Below, one piece after another: positions 8,243 to 10,946 of a DNA stretch of 64,000 nt (positions are counted from its first letter, which is position 1; every line of letters starts with the position of its first letter). Under the pieces are notes generated by a model that saw only the letters and a list, made by a program, of their open reading frames with translations, did no database searches and was not told where the DNA came from. The stretch comes from the human T2T-CHM13v2.0 reference genome, Homo sapiens, in the NCBI RefSeq assembly GCF_009914755.1, contig NC_060944.1; one strand, given 5' to 3'. Both the position numbers and the translations under genes were made by a program.

Positions 8243-8441
8243 CTGCCAGGACCTCCGTTCTCTCAAAGATGTTGCTGCCCTGCACAGTGCTGGACATTGA
8301 CACCTTGTTGGACACATCCTCACTCTCTTCAACGGGTGAGATTCTCTTGGGGATAACCTCATTCTCCTCTAGTTTCTTGGGTTCGGTGGGGACTTGGCTC
8401 CCAGACCCTGCCCTCTCAGGGATATGGTTATCTAGAGGCAC
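8243..8441 (-). CDS. SDC4: Syndecan-4 exon 4
   Basis: 199 nt encoding VPLDNHIPERAGSGSQ...NIFERTEVLA; AG at 8442-8443; GTAAGT donor at 8242. Confidence 0.99.
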
Positions 8442-8847
8442 CTGGATGGGCGGAAAGGAGAAGAGACACTCAGCGTATTTTGGAAGAGACTCAGGGCAGG
8501 GGACAGGGACATTCAGCCAGGCAGAGAATCTGGTTCTGCCATATTCAGCTGAACCATATGGTCCTGGAGCAGGAATTGGCAACACTGTCTCCACAATTAT
8601 GCTGCCAAAATCCTTATCCCCAACTTTTTTAGTATATCTGTCCCAAATGAAAAATGAATGCACCCAAGGGAACAGGGAAGCAGGTGCTCTCCTGCACTGC
8701 TGGCCACTGGTTATTCTAGAGCAACCACTCTGGAAGCAATTTGGCAAAACCTTAGACATCGCTTGCCCTTTAAGGTGGCAGTTTTGCCCTGGAAACTCTA
8801 TTGTAAGGAGCTCTTCAGAGACTACGTGTAAAAGATGCTTGCTGCAG

Positions 8848-9849
8848 CTCCTCTGCCTATGAAGTAGCCATTCTTTTATTCCTTTACTGTCTTAATAAAC
8901 TTGCTTTCACTTTACTCTATGGACTCACCCTGAATTCTACCTTGTGCAAGATCCAAGAACCCTCTCCCTTGGGGTCTGGATCGGGACCCCTTTCTGGTAA
9001 CATCTTTCTGGAGAACCACAGAAGGGATGAGACGGAGGAGACTCCCGAATCAAAGGAAATGGACTGCAGCACTGATTGGAGGACTTTGGATATCACCTTT
9101 TGTCAGAACTAAGAGTTATGAATGGCCCTCACCATACTGGCCCTTTCTGACTGAACCCCTCTCTACCATGGATACAAGAGGCCCTAATAGTTAAGCAGGA
9201 ATATCATCACCCTATTCAGCATGAAGAAGTTATAGAAGATGGATCTTTGTCCCTCTGCAACCCTTAGGATTAAGGGTTTTCTTACAAAAGGGAGGGGGAA
9301 AATGTCAGGTGTTTGAACCAGAGTGCCTACATCTTGAATAGGGGCTGGGTAAAATAAGGCTGAGACCTGCTGGGCCGCATTCCCAGTAAGTTAAGCATCC
9401 TACGTAACAGAATGAGATAGGAGGTCTGCACAAGATACAGGTCATAAAGACCTTGCTGATAAAACAGGTTGCAATAAAGAAGCTTGCCAAAAACCACCAA
9501 AAACAGGATGGCAATGAAACTGTTGGTCTCACTGCTCATTATATGCTAATTATACTACATTAGCATGCTAAGAGACACTCCCATCAGTGCCATGGCAATT
9601 TACAAATGCCCTGGCAAAGTCAGGAAGTTACTCTATATGGTCTAAAAAGGGGAGGAGCCCCTAGTTCTGGGAATTGCCCACCCCTTTGTTGGAAAACTCA
9701 TGAATAATCTACCCCTTGCTTAACATATAATCAAGAAATAACCATAAAAATGGGCAACCAGCAGCCAATGCCACTGCTCTACCTATGGAGTAGCCATTCT
9801 TTTATTCCTTTACTTTCTTAATAAACTTGTTATTGCTTTGCAAAAATAA
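8848..9849 (+). mobile_element. MER41-family ERV1 sequence in processed-RNA arrangement (R-U5-internal-PPT-U3-R-polyA)
   Basis: LTR 3' part at 8848-9002 ends ...TGGTAACA. LTR 5' part starts TGTCAGGTGTTTGAACCAGAG at 9303. R region repeated at both ends. 18-bp TSD. Confidence 0.85.
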
Positions 9850-10021
9850 AAAAGATGTTTGCTGCAGTGTTATAATTTTAAAATGTTAACAAATTATAAG
9901 CCATTTTTCCGTCAATAAAGGGAATCAGGTAAACTATTACGCAGCCTATAAAAATGACAAGAGCATTAAATTATGCAGGGAAATACTCATGACCAGTCTA
10001 AGTGAAAAACGCAGTTCATAG

Positions 10022-10899: not shown

Positions 10900-10946
10900 C
10901 AAGGGATGGACAACTTCAGGGCCGATCATGGAGTCTTCCAAGTCAT
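10900..10946 (-). CDS. SDC4: Syndecan-4 exon 3
   Basis: 47 nt encoding (D)DLEDSMIGPEVVHPL; AG at 10947-10948; GTAAGT donor. Confidence 0.99.

What the first reader, a model, noticed from the sequence alone, without database searches (positions are those of the whole stretch)
8830..9867. Processed, L1-mobilised and probably spliced MER41 retroviral RNA in SDC4 intron 3
Seen: the LTR halves are in RNA order, not proviral order. R-U5 (8848-9002) comes first, then a PBS-like TGGAGAACCACAGAAGGGAT (about 9009-9028, resembling the complement of a tRNA-Arg 3' end) and only 300 nt of internal sequence. The polypurine tract AAAAGGGAGGGGGAAAA, U3 (from 9303), a second R copy (about 9774-9841, AATAAA at 9820-9825) and a short A-tail follow. 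The unit is flanked by AAAAGATG(C/T)TTGCTGCAG at 8830-8847 and 9850-9867, far longer than a 4-6 bp integrase TSD and with an L1-endonuclease-like T/AAAA start. Established: HERV-W processed pseudogenes have this architecture; I do not recall it being described for MER41. Inference: the copy records the MER41 transcription start (R begins about 25 nt after CATAAAAA at 9743-9750), its poly(A) site, and a likely splice junction near GACTTTGG|ATATCACC (about 9089).
Basis: partly seen in the sequence, partly recalled or inferred. Interest (0 to 1): 0.85.

Follow-up and report, generated by a model that had tools for sequence, protein, structure and literature searches.

The report
L1-copied spliced MER41 retroviral RNA
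This 1-kb insert in an SDC4 intron is an ancient DNA copy of a spliced retroviral (MER41) messenger RNA pasted in by the LINE-1 machinery, and it is one of many such copies, although the literature I could read credits only HERV-W with this behaviour.

Summary
Window 8848-9849 runs in RNA order: R-U5, a tRNA-Arg primer-binding site, 300 nt of internal sequence, polypurine tract, U3, R, a short A-tail. It is flanked by an 18-nt direct repeat (17/18).

- The junction at 9089|9090 is a true splice join. Other genomic copies keep the intron, with CTTTGG|GTAAGT at the donor (GT in 14 of 18) and TCTTCCAG|ATATCACC at the acceptor (AG in 36 of 42).
- Seven further loci carry the identical join. Three of them have clear private target-site duplications, so they inserted independently.
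- Other retrocopies record other isoforms: leader-E2-E3 (2 copies), leader-exon X-E3 (1), and leader-E2 with the rest unspliced (8 or more loci). A full-length unspliced copy has a 15-nt TSD, and 5'-truncated copies exist.
- About 100 genomic sites have this R sequence running into poly(A), against 207 running into U5.

The MER41B label rests on a published 26-mer and the tandem GAS spacing. My searches found no printed description of MER41 processed pseudogenes, and reviews call HERV-W the sole L1-mobilised HERV group.

The locus itself is a dead intronic relic. The interest lies at family level. The outgroup empty-site test could not be run.

The parts
8830..8847 (+). 5' target-site duplication, AAAAGATGCTTGCTGCAG. 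The target is GT/AAAA, which is L1-endonuclease-like.
   Evidence: In one search it scores 15.5 against a control maximum of 9.0.
8848..8912 (+). 5' R. It starts at the shared transcription start and contains AATAAA at 8894-8899.
   Evidence: all R-starting retrocopies lined up there begin at (GG)CTGCTCTGCC.
8913..9002 (+). U5, ending in GGTAACA.
   Evidence: One search shows the same end in full 3' LTRs (L005, L011, L017, L018, L027).
9009..9027 (+). Primer-binding site TGGAGAACCACAGAAGGGA, complementary to the tRNA-Arg(CCG/TCG) 3' end plus CCA. It differs by 1 mismatch and 2 one-base insertions.
9003..9089 (+). Exon 1 leader, up to the major splice donor. The exon ends in ...GACTTTGG.
   Evidence: the donor is followed by GT in 14 of 18 unspliced copies.
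9090..9302 (+). Last internal exon (E3), beginning ATATCACC. It includes the polypurine tract at 9286-9302.
   Evidence: AG precedes it in 36 of 42 unspliced copies.
9303..9773 (+). U3. It holds tandem GAS-like TTnnnnnAA sites at 9665 and 9686, the MER41B 26-mer at 9708-9733, and a CATAAAAA box at 9743-9750.
9774..9841 (+). 3' R with AATAAA at 9820-9825. It ends at the poly(A) site and no U5 follows.
9842..9849 (+). Remnant of the poly(A) tail, AAAAATAA.
9850..9867 (+). 3' target-site duplication, AAAAGATGTTTGCTGCAG.

Best explanation
Window 8848-9849 is a processed pseudogene (retrocopy) of a spliced, polyadenylated transcript of a MER41-type gammaretrovirus-like ERV.

Shown by the sequence and by comparison with other copies:
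- The copy begins at the LTR transcription start and ends at the LTR poly(A) site.
- It lacks an intron that other copies keep. The intron is bounded by GT...AG and measures about 3.2-3.5 kb in copies where both ends were located.
- It carries an A-rich tail and a 16-18-nt target-site duplication that starts with AAAA.

Inferred mechanism:
1. A source provirus was transcribed in the germ line of an ancestral simian, tens of millions of years ago.
2. The RNA was spliced from the major donor, 80 nt downstream of the tRNA-Arg PBS, to the last acceptor, 213 nt upstream of U3.
3. The RNA was cleaved and polyadenylated at the R/U5 border.
4. LINE-1 ORF2p nicked the bottom strand at 5'-TTTT/AC in SDC4 intron 3, primed on the poly(A) tail, and copied the RNA up to its 5' end.

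The insert lies antisense to SDC4. It lacks an upstream U3 and appears to be a dead relic. The process was recurrent for this family, not a one-off.
For: Anatomy and TSD.

Splice sites in intron-retaining copies:
- Donor GTAAGT-type, with GT in 14 of 18 copies; the other 4 read ATAAGT or GCAAGT.
- Acceptor CAG| in 36 of 42 copies.

Same junction elsewhere: 7 other loci, at C1:165019954, C10:17110600, C14:65773768, C15:56154508, C12:98319468, C4:81105375 and C20:45516051.
- L003 and L004 have TSDs that beat all 56 controls. So do the window copy and the isoform-B copy L010.
- The TSDs differ from locus to locus.
- Pairwise identity among the 8 copies averages 81.5%.
- In the tree the 8 copies do not cluster: 8 changes for 8 rows. 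The tree is star-like with no strongly supported branch.

Other isoforms with exact canonical joins:
- L099 has leader|E2 and E2|E3.
- L071 has leader|exon X|E3. Exon X is flanked by tttag| and |gtaatg in about 35 copies.

Other L1 hallmarks in the family:
- A full-length unspliced copy, L061+L023, with a 15-nt exact TSD.
- 5'-truncated copies L016 and L013 with TSDs of 21 nt (one mismatch) and 18 nt.
- 22 or so of 29 best-matching loci end in R plus poly(A).

Exact-pattern census:
- R 19-mer followed by A6 within 8 nt: 63 forward and 161 overlapping reverse matches, which I estimate as about 100-110 sites.
- R continuing into U5: 207 sites.
- Reversed-pattern controls: 0 for both.
Against: - The tail in the window copy is only 8 nt and is interrupted (AAAAATAA).
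- The target is GT/AAAA rather than the textbook TT/AAAA.
- The last two TSD bases (AG) could instead be a decayed GG that starts R in other copies, so the TSD may be 16 nt rather than 18 nt.
- Among the 7 sister copies, L032 shows no tail or TSD and L034 is truncated in U3. The TSD scores of L002, L045 and L055 fall within the control range.
- No outgroup genome could be examined for the empty site.
- LINE-1 involvement is inferred from hallmarks, not observed.
Confidence: 0.93

Rival explanations
1. It is an ordinary integrase-made provirus that later lost its 5' U3, its 3' U5 and most of its interior through three chance deletions.
For: Old ERVs are often deleted. The copy lies about 11% from its relatives on the tree.
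Against: - The three 'deletions' fall exactly at the transcription start, at a GT...AG pair and at the poly(A) site.
- The ends are flush with an 18-nt repeat, not a 4-6-bp one.
- The same three boundaries recur at 7 other loci that have different flanks.
Confidence: 0.01
2. The 1-kb unit is a member of a small SVA-like non-autonomous family. In this view one spliced retrocopy became a master copy, was re-transcribed, and L1 amplified it. The eight copies would then stem from a single splicing event rather than from repeated splicing.
For: - Eight copies share one junction.
- The tree is unresolved, with no strongly supported branch, so a single origin is not formally excluded.
Against: - The unit has no U3 upstream of its 5' R. 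Even so, every copy starts at the same base as the LTR transcription start and carries no transduced 5' flank.
- The 8 copies are scattered among unspliced copies on the tree.
- Several other isoforms exist in only 1-2 copies each, which fits sampling of a pool of transcripts.
Confidence: 0.05
3. A spliced viral RNA was packaged, reverse-transcribed by the retroviral enzyme and integrated by integrase.
For: L047 and three other loci lack only the last intron, and L047 has a full 3' LTR. Some spliced forms may therefore have travelled the retroviral route.
Against: Retroviral reverse transcription rebuilds complete U3-R-U5 LTRs and gives short TSDs without a poly(A) tail. The window copy has R-U5 ... 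U3-R, an A tail and a 16-18-nt TSD.
Confidence: 0.01

Closest known systems
HERV-W (HERV17/LTR17) processed pseudogenes. Sources: Pavlicek 2002 and Costas 2002, as cited in Grandi and Tramontano 2017 (PMC5537654; passages read); Grandi 2016 (PMC5016936; passages read).
   Same: - R-U5 ... U3-R order, poly(A) tail, long TSDs and 5' truncations.
- Proviruses and L1-made copies coexist.
- The families belong to the same HERVW9 supergroup, according to the Kojima 2018 table and the Vargiu 2016 section heading.
- The PBS is of the tRNA-Arg type.
   Different: - The LTR and internal sequence belong to a different family (MER41B-like).
- The window copy is a heavily spliced ~1-kb RNA rather than a near-genomic RNA.
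- Reviews state that HERV-W is the sole or unique HERV group mobilised by L1. This family is not mentioned there.
HERV-W processed pseudogenes that lack the pre-gag region. These are read as spliced transcripts in Grandi et al. 2020 (PMC6995185; passages read).
   Same: The retrocopies lack a segment bounded by GT...AG that other copies retain, and this was taken as evidence for splicing of the source RNA.
   Different: - There one intron in the 5' leader is removed and gag-pol-env remain.
- Here the donor is joined to an acceptor 213 nt before U3, which removes nearly the whole interior.
- At least four further isoforms are recorded here.
SINE-R module of SVA. It consists of the HERV-K10 env 3' end plus U3-R with a poly(A) signal and is moved by L1. 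This description is recalled, not tested here.
   Same: The 3' internal end plus U3-R of an ERV ends at the LTR poly(A) site and is inserted by L1.
   Different: SVA is a composite, self-propagating family with its own 5' modules. The MER41 copies start at the viral transcription start and look like one-off retrocopies.
Ordinary retrocopies of cellular mRNA.
   Same: Intron loss, poly(A) tail, TSD and an A-rich target.
   Different: The source gene is a multicopy provirus, so R is present at both ends.

Membership tests
L1-mediated processed pseudogene (retrocopy) | Collinear with a mature RNA: it starts at the transcription start and ends at the cleavage/poly(A) site. | tested here: met
   The 5' end is shared with the other R-starting copies. 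The 3' end lies 16-20 nt after AATAAA and no U5 follows.
L1-mediated processed pseudogene (retrocopy) | Intron(s) removed at canonical GT...AG sites. | tested here: met
   The donor has GT in 14 of 18 copies and the acceptor has AG in 36 of 42 copies.
L1-mediated processed pseudogene (retrocopy) | 3' poly(A) tail. | tested here: met
   The tail is short and decayed, AAAAATAA at 9842-9849. Sister copies have tails of up to 24 A.
L1-mediated processed pseudogene (retrocopy) | Target-site duplication of about 7-20 bp. | tested here: met
   It matches 17 of 18 and exceeds all 56 controls.
L1-mediated processed pseudogene (retrocopy) | Insertion at a TT/AAAA-like endonuclease site. | tested here: met
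   The site is GT/AAAA, which matches 5 of 6 positions. The consensus itself is recalled, not taken from a call.
L1-mediated processed pseudogene (retrocopy) | An empty site with a single copy of the TSD in species that diverged before the insertion. | not testable with these tools
   No other primate genome is held. Both flanks are single-copy in the human genome.
MER41 (MER41B-like LTR with MER41-int) | Sequence match to the family's LTR. | tested here: met
   - The 26-mer that Schmid and Bucher 2010 (Table 1) say resembles MER41B matches at 9708-9733 with 3 mismatches; 0 of 100 shuffles match.
- It also occurs in 48 of 52 related loci.
- The tandem GAS-like sites lie 21 bp apart, as those authors state for the MER41B consensus.
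- This is an indirect test. No Dfam or RepeatMasker alignment was possible.
MER41 (MER41B-like LTR with MER41-int) | The internal 300 nt are collinear with the two ends of MER41-int. | tested here: inconclusive
   The internal 300 nt are collinear with the ends of the interiors of many genomic copies that carry the same LTR. The Dfam model itself was not available.
Integrase-made provirus or solo LTR | Complete U3-R-U5 LTR(s) and a 4-6-bp TSD. | tested here: not met
   The 5' unit lacks U3, the 3' unit lacks U5, and the TSD is 16-18 nt.

The most novel reading that the evidence does not exclude
MER41 is a second HERV group that LINE-1 mobilised on a large scale, with on the order of 100 or more retrocopies. 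This would contradict the printed view that HERV-W alone has this property.

Its retrocopies preserve a fossil transcriptome of the extinct virus:
- one transcription start and one poly(A) site;
- a major donor;
- at least four acceptors, and two small internal exons of 124-128 nt and 71 nt.

These exons lie in a 3' region of about 1.1 kb, within 1.5 kb that showed no recognisable env domain. That splicing pattern would suggest that the 3' region once served an accessory or regulatory function.
Probability: 0.55. Interest if true: 0.65.

Novelty: new member of a known kind. Interest (0 to 1): 0.6.

Why it matters
The locus itself has no evident function. It is an old, promoterless insert lying antisense in an SDC4 intron, and no RefSeq functional element overlaps it in the hub's table. 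The value lies at family level.

1. Reviews state that HERV-W is the only HERV group moved by LINE-1, and they ask which feature of its RNA or LTR explains that. A second, related family (same HERVW9 supergroup) with many such copies turns that question into a comparison.

2. The retrocopies map, at nucleotide resolution, the promoter start, the poly(A) site and the splice sites of a virus extinct for tens of millions of years.

3. Many 'truncated MER41 LTRs' used in enhancer studies may in fact be U3-R ends of L1-made copies. This affects counts, dating by LTR pairs, and models of how STAT1-binding MER41 sequences spread.

Tried and rejected
**Tests that gave nothing or could not be resolved**
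- Pfam scan of 59 stop-free fragments of at least 45 aa, taken from the 1.5 kb upstream of the last acceptor in 10 loci. No retroviral domain appeared. The only hit was a CNOT1 match far below its cut-off. The position of the acceptor relative to env could therefore not be fixed.
- First tree. It included flanking DNA after the element ends and was discarded. It was redone on trimmed rows.
- L030. Its leader is joined about 850 nt upstream of the last acceptor, near a conserved pyrimidine-tract/CAG site. I could not resolve the junction to the base, so I do not count it as a proven isoform.
- L010. Its E2|E3 join is 4 nt shorter than the commonest donor would give. It fits the rarer GGAAACT|GTGAGT variant seen in L047, or a later 4-nt loss. 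L099 shows the exact expected join.
- Paralogous empty-site test. It was not possible because both flanks are unique in the genome.

**Literature**
- Searches: MER41 with 'processed pseudogene' (14 papers; passages read in 2 of them); MER41 with polyadenylated or L1-mediated; MER41-int (7 papers); and two broader HERV processed-pseudogene searches. None returned a description of MER41 processed pseudogenes.
- Not held: Pavlicek 2002. Costas 2002 was not looked up. Repbase/Dfam notes are not among the tools. Supplements of the Grandi papers were not opened. Any of these could hold a prior mention.
- The 2026 bioRxiv paper on HERV RNA architecture and Frith 2023 proved irrelevant.

Full report
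**1. Observation**

- An 18-nt direct repeat lies at 8830-8847 and 9850-9867 and matches 17 of 18.
- Between the repeat copies the order is:
  - R (8848-~8912, AATAAA at 8894-8899);
  - U5, ending GGTAACA at 9002;
  - TGGAGAACCACAGAAGGGAT at 9009-9028;
  - 300 nt of internal sequence, ending in the polypurine tract 9286-9302;
  - U3 from TGTCAGG at 9303;
  - a second R (9774-9841, AATAAA at 9820-9825);
  - AAAAATAA (9842-9849).
- The two R copies are 86% identical over 71 nt.
- I scored the flank repeat by local alignment against 56 controls, each pairing the 5' flank of one locus with the 3' flank of another. The window scores 15.5; the highest control scores 9.0.
- Both flanks are single-copy in the genome.
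- The insert lies on the + strand, antisense to SDC4. By the hub's table it sits between exon 4 (8243-8441) and exon 3 (10900-10946), that is, in intron 3.

**2. Family**

No Dfam or RepeatMasker tool is available, so I tested the label indirectly.
- Schmid and Bucher 2010 (PMC2897888; passages and Table 1 read) print a 26-mer that 'closely resembles' MER41B. They also say that the MER41B consensus has two GAS sites 21 bp apart.
- The 26-mer matches window 9708-9733 with 3 mismatches, and 0 of 100 shuffles match.
- It occurs with at most 5 substitutions in 48 of 52 related loci.
- TTCTGGGAA at 9665 and TTGTTGGAA at 9686 are 21 bp apart.
- Kojima 2018's table and Vargiu 2016's section heading place MER41-int in the HERVW9 supergroup with HERV17 (HERV-W), HERV9 and HERV30.

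**3. The junction is a splice**

I searched the window's own genome (T2T human).
- With the whole unit as query, 4551 candidates were found and 40 scored.
- With the internal 300 nt alone, 462 candidates were found and 40 scored.
- Most hits begin exactly at window position 9089/9090. Upstream of that point they share TTAATCTTCCAG|ATATCACC. AG precedes the exon in 36 of 42 unspliced loci.
- I fetched 20 small regions at leader matches. In 18 of them the leader continues into the intron as GACTTTGG|GTAAGTGG. GT is kept in 14 of the 18; two read ATAAGT and two read GCAAGT.
- The window reads GACTTTGG|ATATCACC, which is an exact exon-exon join.
- Where both ends of the same element appear among the search hits, the removed interval is about 3.2-3.5 kb (coordinates). 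It is 4.6 kb in one copy (L061+L023) that carries an insertion shared with unrelated loci.

**4. Recurrence and independence**

- Seven other loci carry the same join: C1:165019954, C10:17110600, C14:65773768, C15:56154508, C12:98319468, C4:81105375 and C20:45516051.
- A second search, using the junction region of another copy as query, returned the same eight and no more (1174 candidates, 40 scored).
- All eight start at the same base, (GG)CTGCTCTGCC. In full LTRs this lies about 28-30 nt after CATAAAAAT.
- TSD scores:
  - L003 scores 14.0 (19 nt, 2 mismatches) and L004 scores 14.0 (19 nt, 2 mismatches). Both beat all controls.
  - L002 (9.0), L045 (8.0) and L055 (7.0) fall within the control range, although their repeats sit in the right place.
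  - L032 has no tail or TSD.
  - L034 is cut off in U3.
- The eight copies are on average 81.5% identical (range 78-85%); the mean K2P distance is 0.218.
- I built a tree of 48 copies over the E3-U3-R stretch (760 columns).
  - It is star-like, with a median terminal branch of 0.10 and a window branch of 0.11.
  - It has no strongly supported branch.
  - The eight spliced rows need 8 changes, so they show no clustering.
  - Given the lack of resolution, this result is permissive rather than decisive.
- Roughly 0.11 substitutions per site since insertion means tens of millions of years. This fits Frith's statement (bioRxiv 2024.12.11.627920; passages read) that MER41 entered the genome in a simian ancestor.

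**5. Other isoforms and other L1 hallmarks in the family**

- *E2.* L010 (C6:112131868) carries a 124-nt exon (E2) between leader and E3. In unspliced copies E2 lies about 1060 nt upstream of E3. AG precedes it in 20 of 23 copies, and GTGAGT follows, usually after 4 more bases.
- *Leader-E2-E3.* L099 (C21:31156539) is a second copy of this isoform. Both of its joins are exactly as predicted.
- *Leader|E2 join elsewhere.* Eight further loci, counting one duplicated pair once, have the leader|E2 join with no match to E3 directly after E2. I did not inspect their ends, except the R-plus-poly(A) end of L028/L029.
- *Exon X.* L071 (C23:48090299) is leader|exon X|E3. Exon X is 71 nt and lies 317-247 nt upstream of E3. 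It is flanked by tttag| and |gtaatg in about 35 copies. L071 has an 11-nt TSD.
- *L074.* This copy joins the donor 18 nt upstream of exon X, after a ttgag| site.
- *Full-length unspliced copy.* L061 plus L023 (C14:97092443-97098020) starts at R, ends in R plus poly(A), and has an exact 15-nt TSD.
- *5'-truncated copies.* L016 and L013 have TSDs of 21 nt (one mismatch) and 18 nt.
- *3' ends.*
  - Of the 29 other loci, about 22 end in R followed by an A-run 12-20 nt after AATAAA, and 5 continue into U5.
  - In the sample ranked on internal sequence alone, most copies have complete 3' LTRs and a U3 about 80 nt shorter. Proviral and processed forms therefore coexist, and they differ partly by subfamily.
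- *Census by exact pattern.*
  - The R 19-mer followed within 8 nt by AAAAAA gives 63 forward matches and 161 overlapping reverse matches. The reverse matches collapse about 3.6-fold per site in the listed part, so I estimate about 100-110 sites.
  - The same 19-mer continuing 10 nt into U5 gives 207 sites.
  - Reversed-pattern controls give 0 in both searches.
  - Exact matching misses most diverged copies, the window's own among them, so these are lower bounds.

**6. PBS**

- The 14-mer TCCCTTCGTGGTCG has 98 genomic matches.
- I fetched six regions. Four of them are tRNA-Arg genes by ARAGORN, three with anticodon CCG and one with TCG, and the 14-mer sits at their 3' end.
- The PBS expected from these genes plus CCA is TGGCGACCACGAAGGGAC.
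- The window has TGGAGAACCACAGAAGGGA, which differs by one mismatch and two one-base insertions. Sister copies read TGGCGAACCAYGAAGGGA, with one extra A.

**7. Mechanism**

*Shown:* RNA-order anatomy, intron loss at canonical sites, a shared 5' end, a 3' end at the poly(A) site, an A tail, a long TSD, an A-rich target, and 5' truncations in sister copies.

*Inferred:* transcription from a source provirus, splicing, polyadenylation, and target-primed reverse transcription by LINE-1 ORF2p at the bottom-strand site 5'-TTTT/AC. That these are L1 hallmarks is established knowledge, stated for HERV-W in the passages read.

*Open point:* the last two bases of the repeat (AG) may be a decayed GG of R or a microhomology. 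The TSD is therefore 16-18 nt.

**8. Comparison with what is known**

- The kind is known. HERV-W has 135 processed pseudogenes and 65 proviruses (Grandi and Tramontano 2017; passages). A few of those pseudogenes lack the pre-gag intron at GT...AG (Grandi 2020; passages).
- The same authors write that HERV-W is the 'sole HERV group' with a 'unique capacity' to be mobilised by L1.
- My searches found no description of MER41 processed pseudogenes.
- Pavlicek 2002 is not held. Costas 2002 was not looked up, Repbase/Dfam notes are not among the tools, and paper supplements were not opened. Any of these could hold a prior mention.
- I therefore file this as a new member of a known kind.

**9. Verdict**

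The locus is a dead relic. The family-level pattern is the interesting part, and it needs a RepeatMasker-based census and outgroup checks.

Noticed in passing
L062, L064-L068, L072, L075-L077, L080 (5' ends of proviral copies): The ~86-nt PBS-leader unit is tandemly repeated in copies that have U3 upstream: 86 or 172 extra nt lie between U5 and the donor-proximal leader. It is single in the window copy and in the other retrocopies examined.
   Followed up: no
L035-L059 compared with L006-L026: There are two U3 length classes about 80 nt apart. The longer class holds most R-plus-poly(A) copies. The shorter class is mostly proviral, with complete 3' LTRs.
   Followed up: partly
L047 (C17:53848149); also C4:101149363, C9:112205342, C6:87009937: These copies lack only the last 246-nt intron (exon X joined to E3) while keeping upstream introns. 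L047 has a complete 3' LTR, so a partly spliced form may have spread by the retroviral route.
   Followed up: partly
1.5 kb upstream of the last acceptor in 10 loci (L005, L008, L012, L014, L018, L024, L035, L037, L039, L040): None of the 59 stop-free fragments matched a retroviral Pfam domain. The 3' part of the interior looks non-coding, yet it holds two small exons and several splice sites.
   Followed up: partly
L030 (C4:175314290 region): This R-starting copy has its leader joined about 850 nt upstream of the last acceptor, next to a conserved ttttgcaacag| site. The junction could not be resolved. A 12-nt stretch there reads as the reverse complement of the expected exon start.
   Followed up: partly
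L028 / L029 (C23:151046672 and C23:150951285): The same retrocopy, with identical flanks, occurs twice on the X chromosome in opposite orientation. This is a later segmental duplication.
   Followed up: no
L004 (C14:65773242) and L020 (C2:108082131-108083338): L004 carries an internal partial U3-R duplication. L020 holds two R-plus-poly(A) ends about 1 kb apart, which suggests nested or tandem insertions.
   Followed up: no
genome-wide: The 14-mer at the 3' end of tRNA-Arg(CCG/TCG) has 98 exact matches, most of them ending in ...GGTCA or ...GGTCG and lying outside tRNA genes. They may be primer-binding sites of other ERV families. I did not examine them.
   Followed up: no
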